Origin: an uncultured Elusimicrobia bacterium
Lineage (GTDB): Bacteria; Elusimicrobiota; Elusimicrobia; F11
DNA length: 64,000 nt
Direction: 5' to 3'
Assembly: GCA_964405835.1 (NCBI GenBank)
Contig: CAYOPN010000002.1
Coordinates: 24,571 to 88,570, forward strand
The position numbers and the translations under genes were made by a program. This document shows positions 43,718-64,000 of the stretch, piece by piece. Below the pieces are notes generated by a model. The model made no database searches. It was given only the letters and a program-made list of their open reading frames with translations, and had not been told where the DNA came from. Position 1 is the first letter of the stretch; each line of letters begins with the position of its first letter.

Positions 43718-43725
43718 AGCTGTTC

Positions 43726-51031: not shown

Positions 51032-52896
51032 AGCGCGGCGGAGGAAAGCGCGTTCATTTTGATTCGCATTTGGTACCAGATCGAAAAATTGACCATTCTC
51101 CAGAGTCCGTAGACCGCCTCCGAATTAAGCTTGTCGTAATCTTTGATCACCGCCGCCGCGTCAAAAAAATTCTCTGCCCGCAACGACGAAAGGTACTCTA
51201 CAAAAAGCGTTTTATTTTCAGCCATCCAGGTCTTGATCGGGAACGGAAATCCCATTTTGTTTTTTCGCCAGACCACGCTTGCCGGAATTTTATTTTCTAT
51301 CGCTTTGCGCAAAATCCACTTTGTCCACCCCTGATGAAACAACGCGGTCTCCGGCAATTTCAAACAGAACTCGGCCACCTCGAAATCAAAGAACGGATAG
51401 CGTCCTTCAATGGGAATGCTCATCAACGAACGGTCCATGGCCCGCAACCAGTACGGCACCTTGAATTCCGTATACCAATGAAAAATTTTCTCGCTGAAAC
51501 CGAACTCATCGGTGTTGTACGCCCCTTCAAGCGGGTTTGTCATGTATTGGGCAATCAAACGTTGATAGGGCACGTTGTAATTTTTAACGGCATCCAAATT
51601 TTCCAAGACCTTGGCGGGGTCCAATTTCTTTTCGGAATAGGCGTCCAATTCAGCCAACGCTTCGCGTTCGCGGCCGGTTTTCTTCAGTTGTTCGATGAAC
51701 AGGTAAAAAAATTCCTCGGGATATCCCCCCAGCAATTCATCGCCACCGGACCCCGACAAACAAATGCGGTTACCGTCCTGCGCGATGCGTTCCACCAACG
51801 TCCGGTACGTAAACCCACCCGACCCTCCCGGCGAAAATATGGGTTCCTCCATGATCGCGATGTTCTTTTCCAGGTCGGCCAAAATATCTTTGTTGTCGGG
51901 ACGGAGCACGTGGTAATGAAACGATTTACCGTGATGCTCATGAATGGCGCGCGCAAACGGTTCTTCGTCCTGGTTTTCTTGCTCAAACTTGACCGTGTAC
52001 GTGTGGATGCGCTCGGGTGGCAACAGTTCAAGCGCGGCGGCAACAATGGCGGACGAATCCAGCCCCCCGCTCATTTCAAAAGCGAACGGAACGTTTCCCA
52101 CCAAACGTTTTTCAACCGCCCGTTTAAAGACGTTCCAAAAACCGCCCACCAATTCCTCCCGCTCCGCAGCGGACGGAGAGGGCCCTCTCTCAAACAATTT
52201 GAGCCGATAATTTGACACTGGTGTAATTTTTTCTATGGGGAGTTGGCGCAAATTGATCTCACTGTGAGATCCCTTTGGAAAATGGCGGATACCGTTAAAA
52301 AACGTTTCCTGGTCGACGTCTTTGGCCGCGTAAACCAGATAACGTGTCGCGGCGCTGCGGTTGACGGACGGGGAGAGCTCGGGGAGCAATTTAAACAGGG
52401 CCGTTATATTGGAAGCCCAGGCAATGCCGCCGTTTATCGTGGCGTAATAAAAAGGCGCCTTTCCCATCTTGTCCCGGGCAAAAAGGACTTTTTCTTTCCG
52501 CTTGTCGTAAAGGACCACGGCCCAAAATCCGTCAAACCGTTCAAAGCAAGATGTTCCCCACCGCTCATAGGCGGCCAAAACAACTTCGGTGTCCGATTCG
52601 GTCCGGAACGAGACACCCTCGGCGACCAAAGCGGCGCGAACGGATTGGTAATTGTAAATCTCTCCGTTAAAAATGACGGAAAGTGTTTTTGAGGAATTCC
52701 AGAAGGGTTGGTTCGACCGCTCGTTGAGATCGATGATCGAAAAACGCGTGTGCAGAAAAGCAAGTTCGAACGAATCGTTCTTCTCGACAAAAAAGGAAGA
52801 GTTGTCCGGTCCGCGTGTTCTCAGATGAGACAGGCAGGCCGGGATATCGGCCTTAAGCGTGCCAGCGGGCGCCAAATAACCGGCAATGCCGCACAT
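51028..52896 (-). CDS. asnB: Asparagine synthase (glutamine-hydrolysing)-family amidotransferase
   Basis: MCGIAGY Ntn nucleophile, RGPD, and the synthetase PP-loop-like FEMSGGLDSS. 622 aa, a typical AsnB-like paralogue of glycan clusters. The symbol denotes the family only. Confidence 0.8.
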   Translation of the reverse strand: MCGIAGYLAPAGTLKADIPACLSHLRTRGPDNSSFFVEKNDSFELAFLHTRFSIIDLNERSNQPFWNSSKTLSVIFNGEIYNYQSVRAALVAEGVSFRTESDTEVVLAAYERWGTSCFERFDGFWAVVLYDKRKEKVLFARDKMGKAPFYYATINGGIAWASNITALFKLLPELSPSVNRSAATRYLVYAAKDVDQETFFNGIRHFPKGSHSEINLRQLPIEKITPVSNYRLKLFERGPSPSAAEREELVGGFWNVFKRAVEKRLVGNVPFAFEMSGGLDSSAIVAAALELLPPERIHTYTVKFEQENQDEEPFARAIHEHHGKSFHYHVLRPDNKDILADLEKNIAIMEEPIFSPGGSGGFTYRTLVERIAQDGNRICLSGSGGDELLGGYPEEFFYLFIEQLKKTGREREALAELDAYSEKKLDPAKVLENLDAVKNYNVPYQRLIAQYMTNPLEGAYNTDEFGFSEKIFHWYTEFKVPYWLRAMDRSLMSIPIEGRYPFFDFEVAEFCLKLPETALFHQGWTKWILRKAIENKIPASVVWRKNKMGFPFPIKTWMAENKTLFVEYLSSLRAENFFDAAAVIKDYDKLNSEAVYGLWRMVNFSIWYQMRIKMNALSSAAL

Positions 52897-52899
52897 GCT

Positions 52900-53772
52900 T
52901 TATTTCGCCGCGACGCCGGGAATCGGGTGCAGCTTCTTTTTCAAACGGTGCGCGGTGCGGACCCAAGAGAAGTAACGAATGCCCGTAATAAAAAGAAGGA
53001 ACGGAAGAATCGCGGCGAACTCCCAAAGTTTTACTTGTTTGAATGTGGCGATGACTTCGGTCTCAAACGGATGAAACCACGACTTTAGTTTGCGGGCGAA
53101 GGTCCAGTCGCCCGAGTAGGTCGTGTAAAACAAACAATCCCCGCGGCCGTAGCGCTGCCAGCGCTCAAGCACAAAGTCCAAACTCGTGAACCCCACTTCG
53201 ATGCAATCCACATCGGCGATCGCGAAGCGATGCCCGTCGCGCGCCATGCGTTCGCACAGGTCGGTATCGTCGCTGTTCGTGAAAAACGGGTTGTACTTGT
53301 ATTTGCGGATGACCTCGGTCTCAAACAAAATCGGCGTTCCCACCACCGACTTAAAACCGGGCGTGTATTTACGCTTGTAAATATCCTGTGCCCAGCCGAT
53401 GTAACTGCCTTTGTCGCGGAGCACCGTGCGCGTGCTGACGCCCGAGCATTTGTGTTCCTCCATGTATTCGATCATGCGGCGCAGCGAACCTTTCGGCATG
53501 ATGTTGTCCGGCCCTACGAACGAAACATACTTGGTCGTGGCGTTATCGACGCCCAAGTTCCGCGCGATCGCGAGCCCGCGCCCCGGATCTTTGAGCATGC
53601 GCGTTATGAAAGGCTTGGAGAGCTCCACGGTGCGGTCCGTGGAGTTTCCATCGATGAAAAGAATATCTTTCGGCTGGTTCTCCACCACGGACTTCAAGGC
53701 GTCGACCACCATGTTCTCGACGTTCTTCGTGCACACCACCACCGTCAAATCCAGCGTATCGGTTTCGTTCAC
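52900..53772 (-). CDS. Glycosyltransferase family 2
   Basis: I propose the GTG at 53772 (GTGA overlap). LTVVVCTKNVENMVVDALKSVVENQPKDILFIDGNSTDRT...FVGPDN, with a C-terminal hydrophobic tail. Confidence 0.7.
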   Translation of the reverse strand: MNETDTLDLTVVVCTKNVENMVVDALKSVVENQPKDILFIDGNSTDRTVELSKPFITRMLKDPGRGLAIARNLGVDNATTKYVSFVGPDNIMPKGSLRRMIEYMEEHKCSGVSTRTVLRDKGSYIGWAQDIYKRKYTPGFKSVVGTPILFETEVIRKYKYNPFFTNSDDTDLCERMARDGHRFAIADVDCIEVGFTSLDFVLERWQRYGRGDCLFYTTYSGDWTFARKLKSWFHPFETEVIATFKQVKLWEFAAILPFLLFITGIRYFSWVRTAHRLKKKLHPIPGVAAK

Positions 53773-55139
53773 CAGTAGAGCCCCTCGTAGGCGATCTTCG
53801 GCTGGCCTTGTAATTCTTTGAGCCCAACCAAGTCGAACACCTGAATGGATTTCGTTAAAAGGTTGGGCACCGTGTGGAAATCCGGATGATCGTTGCTGAC
53901 CACCAGGCACTCGCTGGCGTCCACGACTTCTTTTAAATCGTGCGCGAGCAATTCGGTGATGTGCGGAATATGTTTATCCAAATATTCTTTGTTGGACCCC
54001 GTTAGATAGGAATAGGTGATCTGCGGGTCGTAGATCTTAAGCTTGTAGCCTTTACCGAGCAAGTATTCGATCAAGTCAACGGTCGGGCTTTCGCGCAAGT
54101 CGTCAGTATTTTCTTTAAAGCTCATGCCGAGAAATCCGATCGGCGCCTTCTCGCGTTTCATGATGCGCTTTAAAATATCGTCGATCCGGTTCTTGTTACT
54201 TTCCATGATGCTGTTGATGATCGGCAACTGCAGATTTTTGTCCACCGAGACCCGTTTCATCGCGCGCAAATCCTTCGGCAGGCAGGAACCCCCGAAAGGT
54301 TTGCCCGGTTTCAGATACTTTGGCGAGATGTTTAACTGCGTGTCCGCGAGGAAAATGTCCATTAGCTTGTGCGCGTCGATGCCCAAGCTGTTGCAGAACG
54401 TGCCCACCTCGTTGCCAAATCCGACTTTCAAAGCATGGAAAACGTTGTTCACAATCTTGATGACTTCCGCCACTTTGGGATCGGTGACGAACAGCGGCCC
54501 GGTCTTCCCGCGAAAAATGGCGGCCACCTTCTCTGCGACGTCCTTTTTCTCCGATCCGATGACGGTCTTCCCCGGAGAGAAGAAATCGCGGATGGCGGTC
54601 CCTTCGCGCAAGAACTCCGGCAGCACCACCACGTGGATGTCGCGGCCCAACCGCTCTCCGACAAAGGAGCGCAACAGCGGGATAATTTTGGTTTCGGTGG
54701 TGCCGGGCTGGAGCGTGCTGCGATAAATCAAGATGAAGGGTTTTTGCAGGTCCTTGAGCACCGTACCGATTTCTTCGGTGACCTTCAGCACATACTCCAT
54801 GTTAAGCGAGCCCGCCTCCAACGACGGAGTCCCGACGCAGATGAAGCAAGCGTCGCTGCCTTCCACGGCCGCGCTCACGTTTTCAACCGTCACCAAGCGC
54901 TTGGAATCGACGGCGTCTTTCAAATAGCTATCCAGTTCCGGTTCGAAGATGGGCGAGAGGCCTTCGGCCAGCCGGCGCGATTTCTTGAGGTTCACGTCCA
55001 GGCCGATCACGTTGAGACCGTTCTTGGCGAGGCACGCCGCCGAAACGCATCCGACGTATCCCAAACCGAAGATCGATAAATTTTGAATGGCCGCGCCTTT
55101 CTCCGGCGATCCCACTTTTTCTTCTGTTTTTATTGCCAC
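53769..55139 (-). CDS. UDP-glucose/GDP-mannose dehydrogenase-family nucleotide-sugar 6-dehydrogenase
   Basis: LSIFGLGYVGCVSAACLA, FICVGTP, GGSCLPKD (catalytic Cys), LGMSFKENTDDLRESP. GTG start with a GAGGGG Shine-Dalgarno. Substrate not assignable. Confidence 0.85.
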   Translation of the reverse strand: MAIKTEEKVGSPEKGAAIQNLSIFGLGYVGCVSAACLAKNGLNVIGLDVNLKKSRRLAEGLSPIFEPELDSYLKDAVDSKRLVTVENVSAAVEGSDACFICVGTPSLEAGSLNMEYVLKVTEEIGTVLKDLQKPFILIYRSTLQPGTTETKIIPLLRSFVGERLGRDIHVVVLPEFLREGTAIRDFFSPGKTVIGSEKKDVAEKVAAIFRGKTGPLFVTDPKVAEVIKIVNNVFHALKVGFGNEVGTFCNSLGIDAHKLMDIFLADTQLNISPKYLKPGKPFGGSCLPKDLRAMKRVSVDKNLQLPIINSIMESNKNRIDDILKRIMKREKAPIGFLGMSFKENTDDLRESPTVDLIEYLLGKGYKLKIYDPQITYSYLTGSNKEYLDKHIPHITELLAHDLKEVVDASECLVVSNDHPDFHTVPNLLTKSIQVFDLVGLKELQGQPKIAYEGLYW

Positions 55140-55154: not shown

Positions 55155-57305
55155 TTAATTAAATGACGAACGGCCGCCCAAAACGGGGGCCGCGGTTTCT
55201 TCCGCCGCTTCCGGCGACAAATTCAATGAAGCGCGGATGACAGGCTGGATGATGTCGCCCTCGATCCATTCCCGCACGCACTTCTTCTCCACCGCTTCTT
55301 TCACGACAGCCAGCGCGCGGCCAAAAACATTTAGGGTCTCATCCAAATCGTAATTGCTGTGGGCCAATGACATAAATGGCGCGGAGCGCGTCAACACGCC
55401 TTGCCGGACGACTTCCTGCTGCAACAGCGTCAATAATTCTTCGGTTGAGAATCCGGCCACTGGCTCGAACAGGTATTCGGGCCAGAAATCCAGGCCGATG
55501 CAAGAAACAAAAGGCGTGCCGATCTTTTTGGTCAACGCGTTAAACCCGCTTTTAAATGTCCGGCCCAGCTCGGCGATCCGAGCCGTGCCCTTCTCGCGTT
55601 CCATGATCTCAATGGTTTTCAACGCCGCCGCCATCGACGGCAACTCGCCGCCGAACGTGAACGAGAAGAAAACTTCTTCCAATGCCTGCATGATCTCCGC
55701 CTTACCGCAAAGGACCGAGACCGGATAGCCGTTCCCCATCGCTTTGCCGAACGTGGAGAGGTCCGGCGTCACCCCGAAGTATTTCTGGGCGCCGCCCATG
55801 TCGATGCGGAACCCGGTGATGGTTTCATCAAAAATCAAAAGAGCGCCGTTTTTGCGGCACAGGTCCTGCACTTTTTCCAGGAAGTGGTCTTCCGGCGCGA
55901 AAAAATTCACGGGTTCCAAAATAACAGCGGCCACATTGTCTTTGTTCTCATCAAATATTTTCTGAAGCGTATCGATCTTGTTGTAAGTGAACGGCTTGGT
56001 GAGCTTCCGGACGGCATCGGGCACCCCTTTGTGACGGGAGGTTGAGCCGATGAACCAGTCCTGCCAGCCATGATAACCACAACAGGCGATAACTTCCCTG
56101 TTCGTGACGCCGCGCGCCAAACGGACCGCGCCGGCCGTGGCGTCCGAGCCGTTTTTTCCGAAACGGACCATCTCCGCCGCCGGCACCAGCGACACGATTT
56201 TCTCCGCGAGTTTGGTTTCGAGCGGATGGGCCATGGACGGAGCGTTGAAAAATTCGTTGGCGCATTCGTAAGCGGCACGGTTGACCTCGGGATGGCTGTG
56301 GCCCAAGATGACCGGCCCCAAACTCAGCGTGTAGTCGATGTACTCGTTGCCGTCCAAGTCCCATACTTTTGAACCGCGTCCGCGAACCAGCATGCTCGGC
56401 GCCACGCCGTTAACGTATTGGGCCGGCGACTTCGAAAATGTTTGGGCCCCGCCGGGGACCAGCGTCAGCGCTTTTTTCCACGCCTGCTCGGTTTTCTCCC
56501 GCTTCAACGGAAGCGCGCGTTGAATCTCGAGCTGTCCTTGCTTCGCATCCTTTTCCAACGCGGACTTCCACCCCTCTCCGTAAATGTGCGGCTGGTCCAT
56601 TAACTTCGGATGCGCGTCCAAATAGGCAAGGATTTCCTCCAACGAGCCGAAAATCTTCTCTTTCTCAAAATGCTCGACCAACTTTTTAATGACGGCAAGG
56701 TCTTCAGGATAATCAACCGTTAGGCGGACTTTGCTCCTGTCCGTTTTGTAATCCACGCGTTTAATTTTAAAGAGCTCGGGTTGTTTCCAAAAATAAAAGG
56801 TCACGTGTTCACGTTCGGACGGTTTCTTTGCCTCACCCCAGGCCCGTTCCAATACTGGGAAAGAAAAAACCTCAACATCCATTCCGTCCGGAAACGTGCC
56901 GGGCGTCGGCACATTATTGCCTGCAAAATCAATCTTTCCCTTGCCCGCTTGAAACGCGCCCACGACACTGTCCACCACCACCGGGTCTACTAACGGACAA
57001 TCGGAAGTCAATCGCACGACAGTACTGGCGCCGTTTTCTTTGGCGGCGCGGTAATAACGGTCAAGAACGTCGTTTTCGGAACCGCGAAACACCGCGACAT
57101 TCAACGCGCGGCATTCGGCCACGATCACGTCGTCCGCCGGCGCGCCGGTCGTCGCAATGACTACCTTGTCGAGTGTTTTCGACGATGCGAGCCGTTCGAT
57201 CATGATCTGCAACAGCGTCCGCCCATTGATCTTCTCGAGGACCTTGTTGGGGAAACGCGTGGACGCGCAGCGCGCTTGGATGATGGCAATGACCTTCTGC
57301 TTCAT
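55155..57305 (-). CDS. Fusion: SpsF/NeuA-type cytidylyltransferase + class III PLP aminotransferase (glutamate-1-semialdehyde 2,1-aminomutase-like)
   Basis: Start at the internal ATG 57305 (MKQKVIAIIQARCASTRFPNKVL...LTSDCPL). C-terminal domain GGAQTFSKSP...GSKVWDLDGNEYIDY...GPVILGH...IFDETITGFR...STFGKAMGNGYPVS, with the PLP lysine present. Confidence 0.8.
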   Translation of the reverse strand: MKQKVIAIIQARCASTRFPNKVLEKINGRTLLQIMIERLASSKTLDKVVIATTGAPADDVIVAECRALNVAVFRGSENDVLDRYYRAAKENGASTVVRLTSDCPLVDPVVVDSVVGAFQAGKGKIDFAGNNVPTPGTFPDGMDVEVFSFPVLERAWGEAKKPSEREHVTFYFWKQPELFKIKRVDYKTDRSKVRLTVDYPEDLAVIKKLVEHFEKEKIFGSLEEILAYLDAHPKLMDQPHIYGEGWKSALEKDAKQGQLEIQRALPLKREKTEQAWKKALTLVPGGAQTFSKSPAQYVNGVAPSMLVRGRGSKVWDLDGNEYIDYTLSLGPVILGHSHPEVNRAAYECANEFFNAPSMAHPLETKLAEKIVSLVPAAEMVRFGKNGSDATAGAVRLARGVTNREVIACCGYHGWQDWFIGSTSRHKGVPDAVRKLTKPFTYNKIDTLQKIFDENKDNVAAVILEPVNFFAPEDHFLEKVQDLCRKNGALLIFDETITGFRIDMGGAQKYFGVTPDLSTFGKAMGNGYPVSVLCGKAEIMQALEEVFFSFTFGGELPSMAAALKTIEIMEREKGTARIAELGRTFKSGFNALTKKIGTPFVSCIGLDFWPEYLFEPVAGFSTEELLTLLQQEVVRQGVLTRSAPFMSLAHSNYDLDETLNVFGRALAVVKEAVEKKCVREWIEGDIIQPVIRASLNLSPEAAEETAAPVLGGRSSFN

Positions 57306-58159
57306 TATTTTTTCTTCAACTCCGCGCACGCAACACCCTTGGCCTGGGCGAGCATCGTTCCCGCTTGACCGTCAACACCGGCTGCTGAACCTTCTTCGAT
57401 CCATCCCGCCGCGCCACCGTCCCGGAAAAAGCGCTGTTCCACGACATGCAGGCCGCTTTCATCCACCAATTTTTTCCAATCGGAAGCAGAGTATTCCTTG
57501 TAGAACCAATACAGGCCCTTGGAATCTTGCGTGTAAGTAATACCACCGTTACCCATGGGAACGGTGAGCAAAATCGACCCGCCGGGACTGAGGATCCTTT
57601 TCAATTCGGCCAATACTTTTTTGTCGTCGTCACGGTATTCCGGTTTCTTCGTAGGCAGGTCTTTGGGACGGTTGAAAACCGTACCCGCCTCGGAATTCGA
57701 ATTAAACTCATCGAAACCGATGTGCTCGATCGTTGAAATAATAAAAATTAGATCAAACGTGTTGTTGTCGAACGAGGACTGTCGCGCGTCCCCCTGATGA
57801 AATTTGAAAATGGAAGTAACGTCTTCTTCCAAGTTGATGAAGCGGTTACGAACGCGGTTAATGTCGACAATGTCAAGCGCCGACAGATCAAATTTCGCCA
57901 CTTTCTTAAGTTCAACCTGCGCGCTTACAAGCGTCATGTCCGCCAAAGAAAGCCCCACTTCGAGCACGTTCTTTTGGCCCGCGTAGCGCGAGATGGCCCA
58001 TGGAATTTCAATGCAGCGTTCGGAAATTCCGGGGAACCAGGGGGTGGGCTTGGCTTCAAAACGGGCCGGCCACTTTTTTCTCTCCAATTCCTCCATCACC
58101 GCCGCGTACCAATCCCTGTTGATCGAGAACTGTTTTTTGGCCAAGGCTTCTGTCGTCAT
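57305..58159 (-). CDS. Putative class I SAM-dependent methyltransferase
   Basis: VLEVGLSLADMT, FDLIFIISTIEHIGFDEF, LSPGGSILLTVPMG. Stop overlaps the downstream ATG by 1 nt. Confidence 0.6.
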   Translation of the reverse strand: MTTEALAKKQFSINRDWYAAVMEELERKKWPARFEAKPTPWFPGISERCIEIPWAISRYAGQKNVLEVGLSLADMTLVSAQVELKKVAKFDLSALDIVDINRVRNRFINLEEDVTSIFKFHQGDARQSSFDNNTFDLIFIISTIEHIGFDEFNSNSEAGTVFNRPKDLPTKKPEYRDDDKKVLAELKRILSPGGSILLTVPMGNGGITYTQDSKGLYWFYKEYSASDWKKLVDESGLHVVEQRFFRDGGAAGWIEEGSAAGVDGQAGTMLAQAKGVACAELKKK

Positions 58160-58175
58160 ATCATCTCCCTCATTT

Positions 58176-59453
58176 TTAATTGACCCATCCCATGTGTTGC
58201 ATCTTCATCCAGCACGCGCGGATTACGCGCGCATCATCAATGGCTTTGTGCCGTTTGTTCGGTGTTTTTAATCCGGCAAATTCGTAGCGGTCCAGCGTCG
58301 GGTCCAAACCGTGCAGCGAAAACAACGTGTCAATATCCAGATGCGCCCGGTGCTCGATATGGTACGGCAACTTCTTGTCCCACGAACGCAAGCGACTACC
58401 GGCTTCCACACGCGACCACATGTTGTAAAGCAAAATATCGTCGATCTGTTTTCCCGAGGAGACCATCTGGACCTTCTTTCCACCGGCGATTTCCTCGAAC
58501 CACGACTCAATTTTCTTAGTGGCTTCCGAGGTCGACACGGCATTGCCATCAAGCAGGTTCAAAATATTTTCTTCAAGCCACGGAGTTACTTGCTCTTTGT
58601 CGTAATCGTTAAGCTCAATGTACAGCTCGTCCCCTTTTTCCGAAACAAAACCGATCGATATCAGCGTCGTATTCTGTCCCCCGCGCGTGAATTCGGTGTC
58701 AAAAAATACCTTTATGAAATTGTCCGGCTGAAGAAATGCCGGGCTCATCGCCGCCGGTCGCGCGTATTTCCGGAAATAGAAAGACAACAATTCCAAATCT
58801 TCGGGCGTATCGACGTCCACCGACCGCTGGCGAGGCATGTAATAACCGACAGACTTCTTCGGCATCCATGTTTTTTCCTTGATTAGTGCCGGAACCCGCA
58901 CCCACGCGAGAGATCCGTTGTCGACAAACGTGGGGGCCAAATCTTGCCCCCGCACCGAAGTCATGTTTTCAAATATTACCAACGGCTTAATAAAGCCTTT
59001 TTCATCATTGATGTGGGCCGGGTAATAATGAAAGCAGTCCGTGGTGCCGATGACCGCATCCGCCTCTTTTTTCCCTTCCAGCATTTTATAGGCCTTCCGG
59101 ATGTCCTCGGCATTTCGCAATGGAGAAGTGGCCCATAACAAACACAGGTTGTCGTACGACTTACCTTTTTTTTTCATTTCCTCGAGCGCGTGGATCAAAA
59201 CATCATTCAAGGAAACCGTGTCTCCGCCCAGTTCGGCCGGACGAACAAACGGGACGGGAATGGAGCGTTGGCGGCAGATTTCCAATGCTTCGTCCGAATC
59301 GGTCGATATCACGACATCGTCAAACACGCCGGACTCCACCGCCGCGTCGTACGTGTGGACAAACATCGGCTTTCCGAAGAAATCGATGAAATTCTTCTTT
59401 TTGACCCGCGTGGACCCTCCCCGCACAGGAATAACGGCGATATTTCTAGCCAC
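58176..59453 (-). CDS. Fusion: acylneuraminate-cytidylyltransferase-family domain + DEDDh-type 3'-5' exonuclease-like domain
   Basis: I propose the GTG at 59453 (VARNIAVIPVRGGSTRVKKKNF...VISTDSDE...WATSPLR). The C-terminal approx 190 aa carries VFFDTEF (Exo I DxE), DDILLYN (Exo II-like) and HKAIDDAR (Exo III H-x4-D). Confidence 0.7.
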   Translation of the reverse strand: MARNIAVIPVRGGSTRVKKKNFIDFFGKPMFVHTYDAAVESGVFDDVVISTDSDEALEICRQRSIPVPFVRPAELGGDTVSLNDVLIHALEEMKKKGKSYDNLCLLWATSPLRNAEDIRKAYKMLEGKKEADAVIGTTDCFHYYPAHINDEKGFIKPLVIFENMTSVRGQDLAPTFVDNGSLAWVRVPALIKEKTWMPKKSVGYYMPRQRSVDVDTPEDLELLSFYFRKYARPAAMSPAFLQPDNFIKVFFDTEFTRGGQNTTLISIGFVSEKGDELYIELNDYDKEQVTPWLEENILNLLDGNAVSTSEATKKIESWFEEIAGGKKVQMVSSGKQIDDILLYNMWSRVEAGSRLRSWDKKLPYHIEHRAHLDIDTLFSLHGLDPTLDRYEFAGLKTPNKRHKAIDDARVIRACWMKMQHMGWVN

Positions 59454-60384
59454 GATTGGCCTTGTCGGTTGACCAGTGTTCGGTCGTGTAATAATAGAAC
59501 TGAATTGCCCAACGCTCGCCGGCGGTAACGTTGGTGGCGCTGTGAATGATATTTCCACTGAAACAAAATAGCGACCCCGCCGGAAGCGCGGCATAACTGA
59601 ACGGCTTTATTCCATACCGTCGCAAATCTTCCAACGTGAACTTCTTTTCCCGTTTGGCCATGATTTCGTAAAGCATCTGCGGATACATCTTCCAGTGGTG
59701 AGATCCTTCGGAATAAGCAAACGCGCCGGTTTTGACGTCGACATCGCTAAGATACAGGTAAGCTTTCAGGGTGCTCGAATACGTATCGAAATGGATTTGG
59801 TTGTAATTCTTCCCGGTTGTCAACGTTTTCCGTTCCAACTTGATTGTCACCGGCCGGAGGTTCCCCCCGTTTGCATACTTCGCGATCCCTTCCACGATGG
59901 GATTTTCAACCACTTCGCGTAAGACGGGAAACTGCTGGAATAATTCTTCCATGGTGAAATAGTTGTTTTTCTGCTGGAGCGCGATTTTTTCCGGGCCGTA
60001 AACCATTGAATAGAGTTTATGCGTTGGGTCATCGACAACCCATTGCAAGGTCCCCTCAGGGCCATTGATCGACCATTGACGTCGTTTCGAATCCACATGC
60101 TGAAATGGAGTCCCTTCTTTTAAGGACTTTTCAAAAAGTTGACTGGCTTCATGAAATTCGTTCTTGACCTCGCTTAAGAAACCGGCGATGGGGCGAGACG
60201 GAGAAAAGCCTGGGATAACGGCCAATCCTTTTTCGTAAAGATCCATTCGTGAACGGTCCAACTCCGGATTCACGGAAATTTCAGGCCGTTTCAGAAACGG
60301 TTCGCCGGTCAAATAGTTGGCCTTACCACCCAACATCCAACGCGCTATCTTAAATTTTCTATTGATTGACGCTTTGATGTCCAA
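59446..60384 (-). CDS. PhyH-like Fe(II)/2-oxoglutarate-dependent dioxygenase
   Basis: IHFDT (HxD facial-triad candidate), AFAYSEGSHHW, and GNIIHSATNVTAGERWAIQFYY (distal His plus Arg). TTG start with a GAGGA Shine-Dalgarno. Confidence 0.55.
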   Translation of the reverse strand: MDIKASINRKFKIARWMLGGKANYLTGEPFLKRPEISVNPELDRSRMDLYEKGLAVIPGFSPSRPIAGFLSEVKNEFHEASQLFEKSLKEGTPFQHVDSKRRQWSINGPEGTLQWVVDDPTHKLYSMVYGPEKIALQQKNNYFTMEELFQQFPVLREVVENPIVEGIAKYANGGNLRPVTIKLERKTLTTGKNYNQIHFDTYSSTLKAYLYLSDVDVKTGAFAYSEGSHHWKMYPQMLYEIMAKREKKFTLEDLRRYGIKPFSYAALPAGSLFCFSGNIIHSATNVTAGERWAIQFYYYTTEHWSTDKANRG

Positions 60385-60395
60385 AATTATCCTCG

Positions 60396-61514
60396 TTAAT
60401 TGGAGGCGTTGCTTCCGATAACTCCGGAAGATGCCGTTTGATGGGGCGACAGATCAACGCCGCCGTGAGATAACACAACTTCTTTTAATGCCCTTAGCGC
60501 CGCGAATTGATCATCGGAAGGTTTCCGGAGCAAGTCTCCATGTCCGCCGGACATCCCGTAGATCACGGTGGGCCGGTTGATGTTGTCGACGATAATTTCT
60601 CCGTGCCGGGCCAAAAGCCCTACCGAGGCGACCGGATGACCTGCTATGACGGTGCGCCCCATTCCCGCTTTTAAGATGGCCTCCATTCTCAAAACCTGGG
60701 CCACAGTCCCTTCAAAGCCGGCTTGCACATCAAAACGAAATATATTGAGCTCGCGTTTTTCCGCCGCATCAATGGCGGCGGGAGACAAACAACCTTTGCC
60801 GCCATCCATAATGATGGCGCCGTCGGAAACAACCGCGATAAGGTCTTCCGTTATGCTGGGCGAACTTCCACTCGATGTTCCAATTAAAATATTGGCGCCG
60901 GTGGCAGCGGCCGCATTGTCCGTTGAGCCGTGCACTTCGGCCACGGTTTCTTGGGGTTTGATGATATTGATCGCTTTGACGATGGTGCTCAATTTCGCCT
61001 CGTCGCGACGTGTTAGATACACATGGGCACCACGTTCCACCAGCTTCATCGCAAGTTTGGAGCCCAAATTTCCCGCTCCGATAATGGCCACGCGAAGCCC
61101 GCCGATTGACGGCACGATCTGCGCCAACAGCGTATCCACGGACTCCACGGTCATGTCATTGGCTTTGTATGTGTAGACCTTGGCGTGCTTTACGACGCCC
61201 CGGACTTCTTTCTCGATATTGCAAAGGTCGACGATGTCGGTCCTGATAGGTGCGATTTTTTTCTCGGTATCCACAAAAATGTAGCGAACGCGCCCATCCA
61301 CCACGCGCGCCACTTCGCGCGCATGCTGGTTCTCGCTCACGATAATACTGCCGGCCACTACCAACGATGTTTCCCGGAGCGGCGAGAAATAATAGGCCGA
61401 AGAATCGACTTTCCGCGTGTTGCCGATACAAAAAGCCGGGATTTTCCCCCGCGCATCCGCACGGGCGAGAACGCTTTTCAGCACGGCCTCGGTTTTTTCA
61501 ATAAGGTTCATCAT
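60396..61514 (-). CDS. NAD(P)-binding Rossmann-domain protein, family unresolved
   Basis: Central LRVAIIGAGNLGSKLAMKLVERGAHVYLTRRD dinucleotide-binding motif, flanked by approx 140-aa N-terminal and approx 190-aa C-terminal regions I cannot assign. ATGA overlap at 61511. Confidence 0.45.
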   Translation of the reverse strand: MMNLIEKTEAVLKSVLARADARGKIPAFCIGNTRKVDSSAYYFSPLRETSLVVAGSIIVSENQHAREVARVVDGRVRYIFVDTEKKIAPIRTDIVDLCNIEKEVRGVVKHAKVYTYKANDMTVESVDTLLAQIVPSIGGLRVAIIGAGNLGSKLAMKLVERGAHVYLTRRDEAKLSTIVKAINIIKPQETVAEVHGSTDNAAAATGANILIGTSSGSSPSITEDLIAVVSDGAIIMDGGKGCLSPAAIDAAEKRELNIFRFDVQAGFEGTVAQVLRMEAILKAGMGRTVIAGHPVASVGLLARHGEIIVDNINRPTVIYGMSGGHGDLLRKPSDDQFAALRALKEVVLSHGGVDLSPHQTASSGVIGSNASN

Positions 61515-62791
61515 GCGGCGACAGCCTCTTTGATTTTTAAAAACTCCGCCACCGTGGGACGATTTTCATCCAACGGCGCAGGGACATCAATATGGCCGGG
61601 GCGGAGAGTTTCCGTTTCATCGATCCATTGGATGCCTTCCGAATTCCCAAGGACCCACGGCCCTTCATGGCTGCACTGCTCCCCCCCACCGATAAGGCCG
61701 AGTACAAAAATGTTAGGAGCGGCGGCCCGCGCAATCCGAAGCGCGCCGGAATAAGCGCCCAGCACGCCGGCGTACTCGCGCGCAATTTCAATCAGCGAAG
61801 CGCCGGTGGCCGGCAACGTTTTTATGGTCACAGGGAGCGACGCAAGTTTTTCTTTCATACGCGCTGGCCAAACCAAAGTTTCTCGAGTCCGCGGATGAAA
61901 CCGCAGATGCACTTCATTCAGAGAAGCCATGGCGACTGCCTGCCCGATAACCCGCACCCAAAAATTCATTTTCTCCTCTGTCATTTCCACCGTATACGAG
62001 CTGAACAGGACCAAGAGTTTTTTCGTCCGATCCAACGCCACCCCCCCCGTTGTTTTTAGAGGCGACCGCGCCGGATGCTTGGTCACGACGGCGTTCTTTA
62101 ATACCGGCACCGCGCGTTGGTACGCGCTGGCGTCAAACGTATCGTAAAACAACACCACGTCGCCGCGTCCGGCCGTGAAAGCAAACCGGTCGTACGGACT
62201 TACGGAAAAAACCTTGTTCCACAAAATTCGAGGGATCACGTAACGATCGACATACAAACGAGCGTGCTTAAAGGAGCGGCGCAACAGGGAAAAACCTTTT
62301 TTCCATAGACGGACCGCCATGGAAGGCTTGGCCAATTGCATCTTTTTCACATTCCGCTCCATGCCGAGGGAAGCCAAATGACGCAGCAGAATTCCGGGAT
62401 CCAAAAGATTGGTGTGCATGACAACGACCTTCGCGCCCAATTCCCTGGCCAGTGCTATCAAGTAACGATCCATGAGATAAAAATCGGTCCCCAACAAAAG
62501 CACTTTGAATGGCTTCTGTTTTATTTGCTCCAACAAGCTGATAATCATCCGTTGGTAGCTCCATGCGCCCTGGGAAGATTGTGACGGCACGCGCTGAAAG
62601 GTGGAGATGCTTCCATTTTTTAAATACTGACTTATCCAATTGTCCGCCGATGCAGAACGGGCCTCGTCGGCCTCCAAGTAGTCGATCGCCCAATCCTGGC
62701 CCAAATCGGGAATGATCGGCACGAAGTAGTCCATGGACACCGTGCCGCTCCCGGAATAAATCAAGATCCGCGGCTTCAGATGTCCTCCCAT
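61511..62791 (-). CDS. Uncharacterised protein, possibly GT-B-like transferase
   Basis: 426 aa with no named motif. Layout (KVLLLGTDFYL...KKLLVLFSSYTVE...HLRFHPR...YAGVLGAYSGALRIA) recalls two Rossmann-like halves. Contains G8 and G7 homopolymers on the coding strand. Confidence 0.35.
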   Translation of the reverse strand: MGGHLKPRILIYSGSGTVSMDYFVPIIPDLGQDWAIDYLEADEARSASADNWISQYLKNGSISTFQRVPSQSSQGAWSYQRMIISLLEQIKQKPFKVLLLGTDFYLMDRYLIALARELGAKVVVMHTNLLDPGILLRHLASLGMERNVKKMQLAKPSMAVRLWKKGFSLLRRSFKHARLYVDRYVIPRILWNKVFSVSPYDRFAFTAGRGDVVLFYDTFDASAYQRAVPVLKNAVVTKHPARSPLKTTGGVALDRTKKLLVLFSSYTVEMTEEKMNFWVRVIGQAVAMASLNEVHLRFHPRTRETLVWPARMKEKLASLPVTIKTLPATGASLIEIAREYAGVLGAYSGALRIARAAAPNIFVLGLIGGGEQCSHEGPWVLGNSEGIQWIDETETLRPGHIDVPAPLDENRPTVAEFLKIKEAVAA

Positions 62792-63984
62792 GTGATGGGA
62801 TACTCCGCCTTGATTTCCCGTTTTGCGGGCCGGCCTTCGACGATTTCCAAATACACGGGCTGCAGGCCGCCGCCGGGGCCTTTTATGGCGATGGCGTCGC
62901 GTGAAATTATTTCGCCTTTGCGGATGTCGGTCCGCGCGTAGAGACTCTTGCGCTGGGAATTGATCGTGTCGTATTCGCTTGGCTGGATCTTTTTCACGCC
63001 ATCGCCCATGATTTGACTCATCAGATTGGCGGCGCGCACAATCTCGCGCATTTCGGCCGGCTCGGAGGAAAGAATGTGGTCAGGACCTTCCAATGTACGG
63101 TCCAGCGTGAAATGACGCTCAATAACGTTCGCGCCAATCGCCAAAGCCGACTGAGAAACCAAATTTCCCAATGTGTGGTCTGAAAGACCCACCGGAACGT
63201 TAAAGGCTTTTTTCATGGTCTCAATTGCTTGCAAGTTCATGTCTTCCGGTGCGGCGGGATACGCGGACACACAATGCAGCAGAACAACATTGGGATTACC
63301 CACACTCTTGATGGCTTCCAAAGCTTCCTCAATCTGTGCCAAGTTCGACATTCCGGTCGACAAAATCATCGGCTTCATGGTTTTGGCGACGTATTTCAAT
63401 AACGGCGTGTTGACCAGGTCGAATGACGCCAGCTTGTAATAGGGATTGCCGACCGACTCCAATAAATCAACGGACTCAAAATCGAACGGCGTCGAGAAAA
63501 TATCGATTCCTTTCTTTTTCGCGTACTCAAATATTTGTTTGTGGTCGTCCAAGCTCAATTCCATTCGCTTGAACATTTCCACCAGCGTCTCTTCCGTACC
63601 GAGTATGGTTTCGGCGTACCGGACTTTTTTTACCTTCCCCGAAACGCGGTTTTCGGTCTTGTAGGTTTGAAATTTAATGGCGTCGCATCCGATTTCGACC
63701 GCGCGGTCAATCAGCCGGCACGCCATCTCCATACTTCCATTGTGATTAAGCCCCGCTTCGGCAATGACAAACGGCTTATGTCCGTTACCGACCGTCTTAT
63801 CGCCAAGCTTCACTTCGTTGTTGAATTTGGAAACGGCCTGCTTCCGTTTCACTTGAGAGAAATCCGAATACTGGTCCGTCAAAATGTCCACCAAGTCGAA
63901 TGCTTTCTGGAACAGGATTTGACTGTCGGCGTAACTAAATTCCCCGGTGGTCCCAATCGAATAGAGTTGATTGAACTTGCCCAA
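62776..63984 (-). CDS. Second NeuB-family nonulosonate/sialic-acid-type synthase with an N-terminal extension; 5' end unresolved
   Basis: PFVIAEAGLNHNG, AIKFQTY, STPFD, YKLASFD, MILSTGMS, LLHCVSAYPA, GLSDHT, ERHFTLD and a SAF domain. The track start is TTG at 63984, but the frame stays open to the window end, so the gene may begin outside the window or be fused to an upstream domain. Confidence 0.8.
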   Translation of the reverse strand: MGKFNQLYSIGTTGEFSYADSQILFQKAFDLVDILTDQYSDFSQVKRKQAVSKFNNEVKLGDKTVGNGHKPFVIAEAGLNHNGSMEMACRLIDRAVEIGCDAIKFQTYKTENRVSGKVKKVRYAETILGTEETLVEMFKRMELSLDDHKQIFEYAKKKGIDIFSTPFDFESVDLLESVGNPYYKLASFDLVNTPLLKYVAKTMKPMILSTGMSNLAQIEEALEAIKSVGNPNVVLLHCVSAYPAAPEDMNLQAIETMKKAFNVPVGLSDHTLGNLVSQSALAIGANVIERHFTLDRTLEGPDHILSSEPAEMREIVRAANLMSQIMGDGVKKIQPSEYDTINSQRKSLYARTDIRKGEIISRDAIAIKGPGGGLQPVYLEIVEGRPAKREIKAEYPITWEDI

Positions 63985-64000
63985 ATGGCTTTGGATCCGC

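What the first reader, a model, noticed from the sequence alone, without database searches (positions are those of the whole stretch)
55155..64000. Second NeuB-centred module with seven genes of unusual composition, distinct from the legionaminic acid set
Seen: at the right edge a second, clearly divergent NeuB paralogue (62776-63984+) leads six tightly packed genes.
- unassigned 426-aa protein, 61511-62791
- Rossmann protein of unresolved family, 60396-61514
- PhyH-like Fe/2OG dioxygenase, 59446-60384
- cytidylyltransferase-exonuclease fusion, 58176-59453
- methyltransferase, 57305-58159
- cytidylyltransferase-aminotransferase fusion, 55155-57305

The NeuB paralogue has an N-terminal extension of about 58 residues, or a fusion continuing outside the window.

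None of the classical companions for Neu5Ac, Pse or Leg is present in this block: no NeuC-type epimerase, PseB/LegB dehydratase or DegT aminotransferase. All of those sit in the other block.

Inference: this module makes and activates a second, differently tailored ulosonic acid that is hydroxylated, methylated and aminated. Alternatively it re-tailors the legionaminic acid made by the first module. The enzyme combination does not match any nonulosonate pathway I know.
Basis: partly seen in the sequence, partly recalled or inferred. Interest (0 to 1): 0.7.

Follow-up and report, generated by a model that had tools for sequence, protein, structure and literature searches.

The report
Uncharacterised mutase-fused sialic-acid-like sugar module
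The block is real and is the in-window part of a gene module, found in many mostly uncultured bacteria and some archaea but never studied, that appears to build, activate and attach a sialic-acid-like sugar using a synthase fused to a flavin 'mutase' domain that no described pathway uses.

Summary
All seven ORFs exist at the stated coordinates, on the minus strand, tightly packed, with the stated domains.

The "NeuB with a 58-residue extension" is the C-terminal 407 residues of a 794-aa fusion. The fusion is a UDP-galactopyranose-mutase-like flavoprotein joined to NeuB and SAF; its N-half lies outside the window.

- The fusion is conserved at 55–88% identity across many phyla.
- It is nearly always followed by the same ~355-aa NAD(P) dehydrogenase (the "Rossmann protein") and an SpsF-type cytidylyltransferase (here fused to the class-III aminotransferase).
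- The NeuB domains of the fusions form their own clade (199/200) and miss both the NeuB and PseI equivalog cut-offs.
- The "unassigned" 426-aa protein is a GT-B glycosyltransferase-like protein with an invariant His-Pro motif, probably the transferase.
- The PhyH, the methyltransferase and the PseF-like–DEDDh exonuclease fusion are lineage-specific additions.
- In the nearest relative, DegT, SDR, GHMP-kinase, NUDIX and ABC-exporter genes lie just upstream, so part of the "missing companions" is a window-edge effect.
- NeuC/NeuD-type genes are almost always absent from such modules.

No literature on the fusion was found. Verdict: an independent, uncharacterised variant of ulosonic-acid biosynthesis. 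The chemistry is inferred, not shown.

The parts
62776..64000 (-). C-terminal 407 residues (388-794) of a 794-aa fusion protein. 63823-64000 is the tail of the UGM-like flavoprotein domain and carries the UGM active-site Tyr410 (63931-63933) and Asp412 (63925-63927). About 62992-63714 is the NeuB TIM barrel. About 62779-62949 is the SAF domain. The N-terminal 387 residues lie outside the window.
   Evidence: The frame is open to the window edge. P0004 (794 aa, NCBI contig of 113,992 bp) ends with exactly this sequence. Pfam NeuB 2.9e-92 and SAF 1.6e-7. Catalytic residues align with N. meningitidis NeuB. UGM residues are invariant in 61 fusions.
61511..62791 (-). 426-aa GT-B-fold protein with an invariant His299-Pro300 and nearly invariant Arg297 and Ser348. 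Probably the glycosyltransferase that uses the CMP-sugar.
   Evidence: No Pfam, NCBIfam or PDB sequence hit. An exhaustive HMMER search finds 176 representatives. AF2 model: pLDDT 92, pTM 0.91. Foldseek returns GT-B enzymes, including the polysialyltransferase-CDP complex 5wcn at E 1.6e-10. Homologues sit in the same module in L001, L002, L018 and L019.
60396..61514 (-). 372-aa two-domain NAD(P)-dependent dehydrogenase (GAGNLG motif at residues 146-151, Arg169-Arg170 after beta-2). It is the dedicated partner of the fusion.
   Evidence: Weak Pfam NAD-binding hits only. AF2 pLDDT 92. Only remote fold matches, TM 0.3-0.44, to dipicolinate synthase A, 2-hydroxyacid dehydrogenases and amino-acid dehydrogenases. 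In 44/47 metagenome loci with enough upstream sequence, the fusion lies directly upstream of a homologue.
59446..60384 (-). 312-aa PhyH-family Fe(II)/2-oxoglutarate dioxygenase. An HFD...H...R motif is visible in the sequence. It is a lineage-specific accessory.
   Evidence: Pfam PhyH 1.6e-7, above the cut-off. The closest solved relative is SnoK, 1e-4. It is absent from L002, L018-L021 and all 80 metagenome loci.
58176..59453 (-). 425-aa fusion of a PseF/NeuA-like cytidylyltransferase with an Rv2179c-like DEDDh 3'-5' exonuclease domain.
   Evidence: Pfam CTP_transf_3 2.5e-21 and Rv2179c-like 1.6e-7. PseF TIGR03584 scores 168 bits, below the 205.7 cut-off. PDB Rv2179c 4e-8. D252, E254, D338, H402 and D407 are invariant in the L002 (66%) and L019 (60%) orthologues. 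Orthologue alignments start at the GTG at 59453.
57305..58159 (-). 284-aa class-I SAM-dependent methyltransferase.
   Evidence: Pfam Methyltransf_11 3.4e-8. A 54% identical orthologue occupies the same position in L019.
55155..57305 (-). 716-aa fusion. The N-terminal domain is an SpsF/KdsB-like cytidylyltransferase, which is the conserved core cytidylyltransferase of the module. The C-terminal domain is a GSA-aminomutase-like class-III aminotransferase.
   Evidence: Pfam CTP_transf_3 3.4e-31 and Aminotran_3 4.9e-56. PRK06209 scores 402.8 bits, below the 486 cut-off. The N-domain hits KdsB-type models. L019 has these as two adjacent genes, 52% and 34% identical; the same fusion occurs in L005.
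49985..55139 (-). Co-directional downstream genes that may belong to the same glycan locus: NDP-sugar dehydrogenase 53769-55139, GT2 52900-53910, asparagine-synthase-type amidotransferase 51028-52896, Gfo/Idh/MocA oxidoreductase 49985-51031.
   Evidence: Pfam and NCBIfam. The GT2 is 40% identical to the GT2 that follows the methyltransferase in L019. The Gfo/Idh/MocA protein is 62% identical to the gene next to the GT-B homologue in L018.

Best explanation
The block is the downstream part of a self-contained, conserved and experimentally uncharacterised module. The module makes a CMP-activated ulosonic (sialic-acid-like) sugar and transfers it to a surface glycan.

Shown:
- The core is a UGM-like flavoprotein-NeuB-SAF fusion, a dedicated two-domain NAD(P) dehydrogenase and an SpsF/KdsB-type cytidylyltransferase.
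- In this organism the core cytidylyltransferase is fused to a class-III aminotransferase.
- The core is joined by a GT-B glycosyltransferase-like protein, a PhyH dioxygenase, a methyltransferase and a second, PseF-like cytidylyltransferase fused to a DEDDh nuclease domain.

Inferred order of events:
1. Upstream genes outside the window (sugar kinase, SDR, DegT, NUDIX) prepare a modified nucleotide sugar.
2. The UGM-like domain keeps the whole UGM active site, including both diphosphate-binding arginines. It binds that nucleotide sugar, and its reduced flavin displaces the nucleotide. This delivers the ring-opened sugar to the fused NeuB domain and so replaces the NeuC/PseG-type hydrolase, which these modules lack.
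3. NeuB condenses the sugar with phosphoenolpyruvate.
4. The dehydrogenase adjusts one centre of the keto-acid.
5. The SpsF-like domain makes the CMP-sugar.
6. The aminotransferase, methyltransferase and dioxygenase add amino, methyl and hydroxyl groups.
7. The GT-B protein transfers the sugar.
For: Fusion identity:
- The L002 orthologue, 88% identical over the window part, is a 794-aa protein with Amino_oxidase/NAD_binding_8 plus NeuB plus SAF.
- P0004, from the source contig, ends with exactly the window sequence.
- More than 120 clusters of full-length fusions at 55-84% identity come from Elusimicrobia, Anaerolineales, Margulisbacteria, Omnitrophota, Marinimicrobia, Thermodesulfobacteriota, Gammaproteobacteria, Magnetococcus and Nitrososphaerales.

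Core synteny:
- The order fusion, Rossmann protein, CTP_transf_3 holds in seven independent contexts.
- In 44/47 metagenome loci with enough upstream sequence, chosen only by Rossmann homology, the fusion lies directly upstream of the Rossmann gene. The SpsF-like cytidylyltransferase is present in 36/41 loci of 8 kb or more.
- L019, a Pseudomonadota MAG, carries almost the whole window set: Rossmann 43%, GT-B 33%, CTP 52%, AT3 34%, CTP-exo 60%, methyltransferase 54%, GT2 40%.

NeuB domain:
- Catalytic residues are conserved against 1xuu.
- It is a separate clade, a 199/200 split.
- It falls below both equivalog cut-offs.

UGM-like domain:
- The best PDB hits are UGMs, 9e-11.
- H56, H59, Y151, W156, R170, R278, Y311, Y346 and D348 of E. 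coli Glf are invariant in 61 fusions.

Missing steps: of 37 core loci of 10 kb or more, 1 has a NeuC-like gene and 1 a NeuD-like gene, against 24 with an SDR and 19 with a DegT gene.

GT-B assignment.
Against: - No enzyme of this module has been assayed. The order of steps, the substrate and the product are inference.
- UGMs normally return the nucleotide to the sugar. Hydrolytic release is a proposal, not a known activity of the family.
- A PseG-type hydrolase was not specifically searched for.
- A NUDIX hydrolase upstream in L002 and L018 could do the nucleotide removal instead.
- The dehydrogenase has no close structural relative, so its reaction is unknown.
- Two cytidylyltransferases in one module are not explained, and neither is the intact DEDDh nuclease domain.
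- The GT-B fold is shared with UDP-GlcNAc 2-epimerases, so 'transferase' is not proven.
- The window's own upstream sequence was not obtainable. Synteny with L002 upstream is assumed.
Confidence: 0.6

Rival explanations
1. The same module and the same product class, but the UGM-like domain acts after activation. It would be a true ring-contracting mutase that converts the CMP-ulosonic acid (phosphate plus C1 carboxylate mimicking a diphosphate) from pyranose to furanose form before transfer. NeuB would take a free sugar produced by other enzymes, for example NUDIX plus a phosphatase.
For: The complete UGM active site is conserved, including residues used for ring contraction. NUDIX is upstream in L002 and L018, and a HAD/PNK3P-like domain sits on the ABC transporter in L018, which offers another route to a free sugar. 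Furanosidic Kdo exists in some capsules (my own recollection, not checked here).
Against: NUDIX was found in only 2 of 37 core loci, so it cannot be the general nucleotide-removing step. Fusion to NeuB rather than to the cytidylyltransferase argues for adjacent steps. No furanosidic nonulosonate is known to me.
Confidence: 0.15
2. The block does not make its own sugar. It re-tailors the legionaminic acid made by the first block (46309-47409 and neighbours) by amination, methylation and hydroxylation.
For: Both blocks lie in one co-directional gene array. A CTP_transf_3-Aminotran_3 fusion sits in a canonical Leg cluster in L005, where LegF is expected. An adjacent GSA-aminomutase-like and cytidylyltransferase pair is listed in a Legionella Pse/NeuB O-antigen cluster (PMC3694923).
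Against: The block has its own intact NeuB domain and two cytidylyltransferases. The fusion-Rossmann-CTP core occurs with no Leg-type NeuB, NeuC or NeuD within 10 kb in L018, L019 and L022.
Confidence: 0.12
3. It is an ordinary pseudaminic, legionaminic or neuraminic acid pathway. Its classical partner genes lie just beyond the window edge, and the fusion is incidental.
For: DegT and SDR genes lie upstream of the orthologue in L002. The best PDB sequence hit of the NeuB domain is a pseudaminic acid synthase, 8h2c at 4.9e-62.
Against: - NeuB2 scores below both the NeuB (388.8 vs 399.65) and PseI (326.7 vs 340.25) cut-offs.
- It forms a separate, well-supported clade.
- It is only 38% and 35% identical to 8h2c PseI and NmNeuB.
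- The Arg314 position of NmNeuB is Gly here.
- No PseH/NeuD-type acetyltransferase or NeuC-type epimerase lies in the 7 kb upstream in L002 or in nearly any related locus.
- The dedicated dehydrogenase belongs to no described NulO pathway.
Confidence: 0.08

Closest known systems
Nonulosonic acid pathways (NeuB/NeuA for Neu5Ac; LegI/LegF for legionaminic acid; PseI/PseF for pseudaminic acid; B. subtilis SpsE/SpsF)
   Same: A NeuB-family PEP-condensing synthase with a SAF domain and conserved catalytic residues. CTP_transf_3 cytidylyltransferases for CMP activation. SDR and DegT genes are frequent neighbours.
   Different: - The synthase is fused to a UGM-like flavoprotein.
- Its NeuB domain forms its own clade and misses both equivalog cut-offs.
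- A dedicated two-domain dehydrogenase always follows.
- NeuC/LegG-type hydrolysing epimerase and NeuD/PseH-type acetyltransferase are almost always absent.
UDP-galactopyranose mutase (Glf, PDB 1i8t/3gf4)
   Same: The N-domain of the fusion is homologous over its whole length (21% identity to E. coli Glf). It keeps H56, H59, Y151, W156, R170, R278, Y311, Y346 and D348 in all 61 sequences examined.
   Different: It scores far below the TIGR00031 cut-off (37 vs 304 bits). It has a ~60-residue insertion and is covalently joined to NeuB. Its nearest NCBIfam models are the uncharacterised 'PRK07208 hypothetical protein' group. Only its last ~58 residues are inside the window.
Bacterial GT-B sialyltransferases / polysialyltransferase (PDB 5wcn, CDP complex)
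   Same: The 426-aa protein has a confident GT-B model, and 5wcn is its second-best structural match. It carries an invariant His-Pro and a conserved Ser in the C-terminal Rossmann half. This resembles the 'HP' and serine motifs of bacterial sialyltransferases (motif knowledge recalled, not tested).
   Different: No sequence-level similarity to any Pfam or PDB family. TM-scores are only about 0.5. Plant GT1 enzymes and UDP-GlcNAc 2-epimerases match equally well.
Oxidation-transamination tailoring of sugars at a primary or secondary carbon (Kdo8N KdnA/KdnB; aminoglycoside 6'-amination by a flavoprotein plus a GSA-aminomutase-like aminotransferase), recalled from the literature
   Same: A class-III (GSA-aminomutase-like) aminotransferase sits in a sugar pathway. 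In related loci it is often paired with a short-chain dehydrogenase.
   Different: Here the aminotransferase is fused to the cytidylyltransferase. No partner oxidase is assigned in the window. The site of amination is unknown.
KdoO, the Fe(II)/2-oxoglutarate Kdo 3-hydroxylase (recalled), and SnoK (PDB 5epa)
   Same: These are Fe/2OG dioxygenases acting on sugar moieties. The PhyH-like protein's closest solved relative is SnoK.
   Different: Very weak similarity (E 1e-4 over 85 residues). No evidence for the substrate. The gene is absent from all other versions of the module.

Membership tests
NeuB family (PEP-dependent ulosonic acid synthases, PF03102 + SAF) | Full-length match to the NeuB TIM-barrel model and a C-terminal SAF domain | tested here: met
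   PF03102 2.9e-92 over model positions 1-241 of 241. PF08666 1.6e-7.
NeuB family (PEP-dependent ulosonic acid synthases, PF03102 + SAF) | Metal and PEP ligands of N. meningitidis NeuB (E25, K53, K129, H215, E234, H236, D247) | tested here: met
   In the alignment to 1xuu these columns read IAEAG, KFQT, KPMILSTG, GLSDHT, ERHFT and GPD. Residue numbering is from my recollection of the 1xuz literature.
N-acetylneuraminate synthase equivalog (TIGR03569, also covers Leg-type synthases) | Score at or above the curated cut-off of 399.65 bits | tested here: not met
   388.8 bits for the window part and 386.2 for P0004. The window's other NeuB scores 463.8.
N-acetylneuraminate synthase equivalog (TIGR03569, also covers Leg-type synthases) | Arg314 of the SAF domain, which contacts the N-acetyl group of ManNAc | tested here: not met
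   NmNeuB 'WVKRPGNG' aligns with 'AIKGPGGG'.
Pseudaminic acid synthase PseI (TIGR03586) | Score at or above the curated cut-off of 340.25 bits | tested here: not met
   326.7 bits. 38% identity to the solved PseI 8h2c.
Pseudaminic acid synthase PseI (TIGR03586) | Clustering with PseB, PseC, PseH and PseG | tested here: inconclusive
   None is in the block. DegT and SDR genes lie upstream in L002, but no acetyltransferase. PseG was not searched for specifically.
Legionaminic acid synthase LegI | Grouping with NeuB genes that sit in LegB/C/G/H context | tested here: not met
   The fused NeuB domains split from all unfused ones in 199/200 replicates. The Leg-context NeuB of L005 groups with window NeuB1 (55% identity), not with NeuB2 (47%).
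UDP-galactopyranose mutase (GLF / TIGR00031) | Active-site residues: flavin-side His pair, substrate Tyr/Trp and two diphosphate-binding Arg | tested here: met
   9 of 10 E. coli Glf positions are invariant in 61 fusion N-domains; Y181 is replaced by Phe. Only Y410 and D412 are encoded inside the window.
UDP-galactopyranose mutase (GLF / TIGR00031) | Score at or above the equivalog cut-off of 303.75 bits | tested here: not met
   37.4 bits. The PF03275 hit is only 'weak' in precomputed annotations.
UDP-galactopyranose mutase (GLF / TIGR00031) | Pyranose-furanose interconversion of a nucleotide sugar | not testable with these tools
   Needs an enzyme assay with reduced flavin.
CMP-ulosonic acid synthetases (PF02348; PseF TIGR03584) | CTP_transf_3 domain above the Pfam cut-off | tested here: met
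   76.9 bits (58176-59453) and 109.2 bits (55155-57305), against a cut-off of 22.6.
CMP-ulosonic acid synthetases (PF02348; PseF TIGR03584) | PseF equivalog cut-off of 205.7 bits | tested here: not met
   168 bits for the CTP-exonuclease fusion. The SpsF-like domain hits only KdsB-type models at 68 bits or less.
DEDDh 3'-5' exonucleases, Rv2179c/RNase AS type (PF16473) | Domain above the cut-off with an intact D-E-D-D-h motif | tested here: met
   31.7 bits vs 27. Rv2179c 4e-8. D252, E254, D338, H402 and D407 are invariant in three orthologues. Nuclease activity was not tested.
Class-III aminotransferases (PF00202); glutamate-1-semialdehyde aminomutase HemL | Aminotran_3 domain; HemL equivalog cut-offs | tested here: inconclusive
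   PF00202 is met at 190.6 bits. No HemL-type model is passed: PRK06209 402.8 vs 486, TIGR00713 260.9 vs 527. It is a member of the class, not HemL.
PhyH Fe(II)/2-oxoglutarate dioxygenases (PF05721) | Domain above the cut-off and an HxD...H facial triad | tested here: met
   32.2 bits vs 22, matching only the C-terminal half of the model. 'IHFD', 'IIHSA' and 'GERW' are visible in the translation.
GT-B glycosyltransferases, sialyltransferase-like | Two-Rossmann GT-B fold | tested here: met
   AF2 pLDDT 92, pTM 0.91. All top Foldseek hits are GT-B proteins with probability 1.0.
GT-B glycosyltransferases, sialyltransferase-like | Sequence membership of a CAZy sialyltransferase family (GT38/52/80) and CMP-sugar use | tested here: not met
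   No Pfam or PDB sequence hit with a single sequence or a 56-sequence profile. The invariant HP motif is a resemblance only. Donor specificity is not testable here.

The most novel reading that the evidence does not exclude
The UGM-like-NeuB fusion defines a new route to ulosonic acids. In it a flavin-dependent, UGM-type domain strips the nucleotide from a nucleotide sugar and hands the ring-opened sugar directly to the PEP-condensing domain. Alternatively it makes a furanosidic CMP-ulosonate. Together with its dedicated dehydrogenase, this core would make a so far undescribed class of sialic-acid-like sugar on the surfaces of many uncultured bacteria and marine Nitrososphaerales archaea. In many loci the core also has a second, divergent NeuB-like domain fused to the cytidylyltransferase.
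Probability: 0.3. Interest if true: 0.8.

Novelty: new variant of a known kind. Interest (0 to 1): 0.62.

Why it matters
Sialic-acid-like sugars decide how microbial surfaces are seen by phages, predators and immune systems. All described routes to them share one logic: dehydratase, aminotransferase, acetyltransferase, hydrolase/epimerase, synthase, then cytidylyltransferase.

This module keeps the synthase and the cytidylyltransferase. It replaces the steps around them with a flavin mutase-like domain and a dehydrogenase of unknown reaction. It is conserved from Elusimicrobia to marine archaea, yet databases call it only 'N-acetylneuraminate synthase family protein' or 'FAD-dependent oxidoreductase'.

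If the inferred chemistry holds, it would add a new reaction type for the UGM fold and a new family of surface sugars. It would also correct a systematic mis-annotation in metagenomes. The module is compact: three core genes could be expressed and assayed directly.

Tried and rejected
- Recovering the source contig failed. Exact look-ups of the 426-aa protein, P0001 and P0004 found no record. The species-representative genome scan returned only a relative, 88% identical in the NeuB2 match. The window's true upstream sequence therefore remains unseen.
- The word-indexed search made the 426-aa protein look like an orphan, with 2 hits. The exhaustive HMMER search showed a family of 176 representatives, so 'orphan' was rejected.
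It was redone with search-derived sequences.
- Foldseek gave no close match for the Rossmann protein (TM 0.44 or less), so no reaction could be assigned.
- A 56-sequence profile of the GT-B family found nothing in PDB or Pfam.
- 'Amine oxidase / protoporphyrinogen oxidase', the Pfam and JGI labels for the N-domain, was rejected in favour of UGM-like on active-site conservation.
- The first tree script timed out.
- Rooting with the very divergent NeuB-like outgroup gave unstable support: 44/100 in a run with invalid distances, then 100/200. The unrooted split test gave 199/200.
- Seven literature searches found no paper on the fusion or the module (passages read).
- GC content of the block (50-54%) is not distinct from the rest of the window. 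There is no sign of recent foreign origin.

Full report
**Observation**

Successive genes overlap or are separated by at most 16 nt.

Pfam and NCBIfam confirm each assignment:
- NeuB plus SAF.
- No family for the 426-aa protein.
- Only weak NAD-binding hits for the 372-aa protein.
- PhyH.
- CTP_transf_3 plus an Rv2179c-like exonuclease.
- A class-I methyltransferase.
- CTP_transf_3 plus Aminotran_3.

The other NeuB (46309-47409) is 47.5% identical. It passes the NeuB equivalog cut-off and sits next to a NeuC+NeuD fusion and a NeuA-like gene. LegB/LegC-like genes lie at 32308-33291 and 31155-32387. GC content is unremarkable.

**The right edge**

The NeuB frame has no stop before base 64000. 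A scan of species-representative genomes found an Elusimicrobia MAG contig (L002) whose orthologue is 88% identical over all 402 residues. That orthologue is a 794-aa protein with an N-terminal flavoprotein domain (NAD_binding_8, Amino_oxidase) followed by NeuB and SAF.

A protein search with that fusion returned P0004: 794 aa, from an NCBI contig of 113,992 bp. That is the same contig size as for the exact copies of the 426-aa and 372-aa window proteins. The last 407 residues of P0004 are identical to the window translation. The '58-residue extension' is therefore the tail of a fused domain.

**What the fused domain is**

Its best solved relatives are UDP-galactopyranose mutases (9e-11). I took E. 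coli Glf from MG1655 and aligned it with 61 fusion N-domains.
- H56, H59, Y151, W156, R170, R278, Y311, Y346 and D348 are invariant. Only Y181 is replaced, by Phe.
- These are the residues I recall as the UGM active site, including the two arginines that hold the diphosphate. Each position in the E. coli sequence carries the residue I expected.
- The domain nevertheless scores far below the UGM equivalog cut-off. It is closest to the uncharacterised 'PRK07208' models.

It is UGM-like, not an orthologue of Glf and not an amine oxidase.

**A conserved module**

More than 120 clusters of full-length fusions at 55-84% identity come from many bacterial phyla and from Nitrososphaerales archaea.

In every context examined, the fusion is followed by a homologue of the 372-aa protein and then, within a few genes, by an SpsF-like CTP_transf_3. 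These contexts are L002, L018, L019, a Marinimicrobia contig, L020/L021 and L022/L023.

The SpsF-like gene corresponds to the N-terminal domain of the window's cytidylyltransferase-aminotransferase fusion, not to the PseF-like one.

I then collected 80 metagenome loci using only a profile of the 372-aa protein.
- In 44 of 47 loci with enough upstream sequence, a UGM-like segment directly followed by NeuB lies immediately upstream.
- The SpsF-like cytidylyltransferase is in 36 of 41 loci of 8 kb or more.
- DegT is in 20, a short-chain dehydrogenase in 18, an ABC exporter in 14, the class-III aminotransferase in 8 and the GT-B protein in 4.
- PhyH, the methyltransferase and the exonuclease domain are in none.

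L019, from a Pseudomonadota MAG, carries nearly the whole window set in similar order, except PhyH.

So the window block is a conserved three-gene core plus lineage-specific tailoring genes.

**The NeuB domain**

The catalytic residues of N. meningitidis NeuB are conserved. The SAF-domain arginine that contacts the N-acetyl group is not. The domain scores below both the NeuB and the PseI equivalog cut-offs.

In a neighbour-joining analysis the NeuB domains of the fusions form a split supported in 199 of 200 replicates. The split separates them from NmNeuB, a solved PseI, 14 unfused NeuBs and window NeuB1. NeuB1 groups with the NeuB of L005, which lies in a canonical Leg context.

**The two unassigned proteins**

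*The 426-aa protein.* It is not an orphan. An exhaustive HMMER search finds 176 representatives, and homologues lie in the same module in L001, L002, L018 and L019.
- Its AlphaFold model is confident (pLDDT 92, pTM 0.91) and is a GT-B fold.
- The best matches are plant GT1 enzymes, a bacterial polysialyltransferase bound to CDP, and UDP-GlcNAc 2-epimerases.
- His299-Pro300 are invariant. Arg297 and Ser348 are nearly invariant.
- It diverges much faster than its neighbours: 44.5% identity to L002 against 71-88%.

I read it as the transferase for the CMP-sugar, with moderate confidence.

*The 372-aa protein.* It gives an equally confident model but has no close structural relative. The remote matches are two-domain dehydrogenases that act on 2-oxo or hydroxy acids. 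Its reaction is unknown.

**Accessory genes**

- The exonuclease-like domain keeps all five DEDDh residues in three orthologues.
- The PhyH protein has the HxD...H motif. Its closest solved relative is SnoK, which acts on a sugar moiety.
- The cytidylyltransferase-aminotransferase fusion also occurs in a canonical Leg cluster in L005.
- The unfused pair of these two genes is listed in a Legionella O-antigen cluster containing PseG and NeuB (PMC3694923).

**Companions**

In L002 the genes directly upstream of the fusion are an MsbA/PglK-like ABC exporter, a NUDIX hydrolase, an HddA/fucokinase-like GHMP kinase, an SDR, a DegT aminotransferase and an FAD oxidoreductase. L018 and L019 have similar sets.

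Across 37 core loci of 10 kb or more, SDR and DegT genes are common (24 and 19). A NeuC-like gene is found once and a NeuD-like gene once.

**Mechanism**

Shown:
- The domain composition.
- The conservation of the core.
- The intact active sites of the NeuB, UGM-like and DEDDh domains.

Inferred:
1. A nucleotide sugar made by the upstream genes is bound by the UGM-like domain.
2. The flavin of that domain displaces the nucleotide and passes the open-chain sugar to NeuB, which would explain why no NeuC/PseG-type enzyme is present.
3. NeuB adds PEP.
4. The dehydrogenase changes one centre.
5. The SpsF-like domain makes the CMP-sugar.
6. Amination, methylation and hydroxylation follow.
7. The GT-B protein transfers the sugar.

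Rivals:
- The UGM-like domain is a true mutase acting on the CMP-sugar.
- The block re-tailors legionaminic acid.
- It is an ordinary Pse/Leg/Neu pathway cut by the window edge.

The last two are disfavoured by the independent occurrence of the core, its own clade of NeuB, and the missing steps.

**Novelty**

Seven full-text searches found nothing on the fusion or the module. Source annotations call it 'N-acetylneuraminate synthase family protein', 'FAD-dependent oxidoreductase' or 'sialic acid synthase SpsE/protoporphyrinogen oxidase'.

It is a new variant of a known kind of system: ulosonic-acid biosynthesis and activation. It is not a new kind of system. The product and the chemistry remain to be determined.

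Noticed in passing
L020:8068-9840 and 24 of 39 metagenome loci of 8 kb or more (e.g. L027 ~2526, L062 ~5683): Directly after the Rossmann gene many loci, mostly from marine samples, carry a second, very divergent NeuB-like domain (about 25% identical to both window NeuBs). In L020 it is fused to the N-terminus of the SpsF-like cytidylyltransferase as a 590-aa protein, and the spacing in other loci suggests the same. That gives two NeuB-type domains in one module. The window version lacks this domain.
   Followed up: partly
L005:5218-16913: A canonical legionaminic-type cluster: LegB-, LegC- and NeuC-like genes, a B12 radical-SAM gene, NeuB, a hexapeptide acetyltransferase, a CBS-nucleotidyltransferase and Gfo/Idh/MocA. 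It carries a CTP_transf_3-Aminotran_3 fusion where the CMP-Leg synthetase is expected, followed by a CN_hydrolase.
   Followed up: partly
window 44495-46312 (-): A 605-aa fusion of a NeuC-type hydrolysing UDP-GlcNAc 2-epimerase (440 bits) and a NeuD/PglB-type acetyltransferase (214 bits) in the first, Leg-like block.
   Followed up: no
window 42530-44448 (-): A NanM-type putative sugar O-methyltransferase (395 aa) and a CmoA-like SAM enzyme (240 aa, below its equivalog cut-off) end the Leg-like block. This suggests that the first sugar is also methylated or carboxymethylated.
   Followed up: no
window 48098-49570 (-): The longest ORF for this Gfo/Idh/MocA oxidoreductase is 490 aa, and its recognisable domain starts only at about residue 167. 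The N-terminal part is unassigned or the true start is later. An overlapping 255-aa ORF lies at 49090-49857.
   Followed up: no
L018:7644-10004: The ABC exporter just upstream of the fusion in this Elusimicrobia genome is 786 aa. It carries an extra N-terminal HAD/PNK3P-like phosphatase domain (weak Pfam hits).
   Followed up: no
L018:15417-22385: Downstream of the module lie three or four Gfo/Idh/MocA genes, two short-chain dehydrogenases and a DHQ-synthase-like sugar-phosphate cyclase. This could be a cyclitol or second-sugar pathway in the same locus.
   Followed up: no
L019:2126-6333: A split transketolase pair and a B12-binding radical-SAM enzyme sit among the precursor genes upstream of the fusion in the Pseudomonadota MAG. 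This hints at chain extension or C-methylation of the precursor sugar.
   Followed up: no
window 61511-62791 compared with L002:9455-10720: The GT-B protein is only 44.5% identical between the window and L002, while flanking genes are 71-88% identical. The rate difference is typical of acceptor-specific glycosyltransferases.
   Followed up: partly
window 52900-53910 / 53769-55139 (-): The longest GT2 ORF overlaps the end of the nucleotide-sugar dehydrogenase gene by about 140 nt. The GT2 domain and its alignment to L019 begin near residue 52, so the true start is probably downstream of the listed GTG.
   Followed up: no
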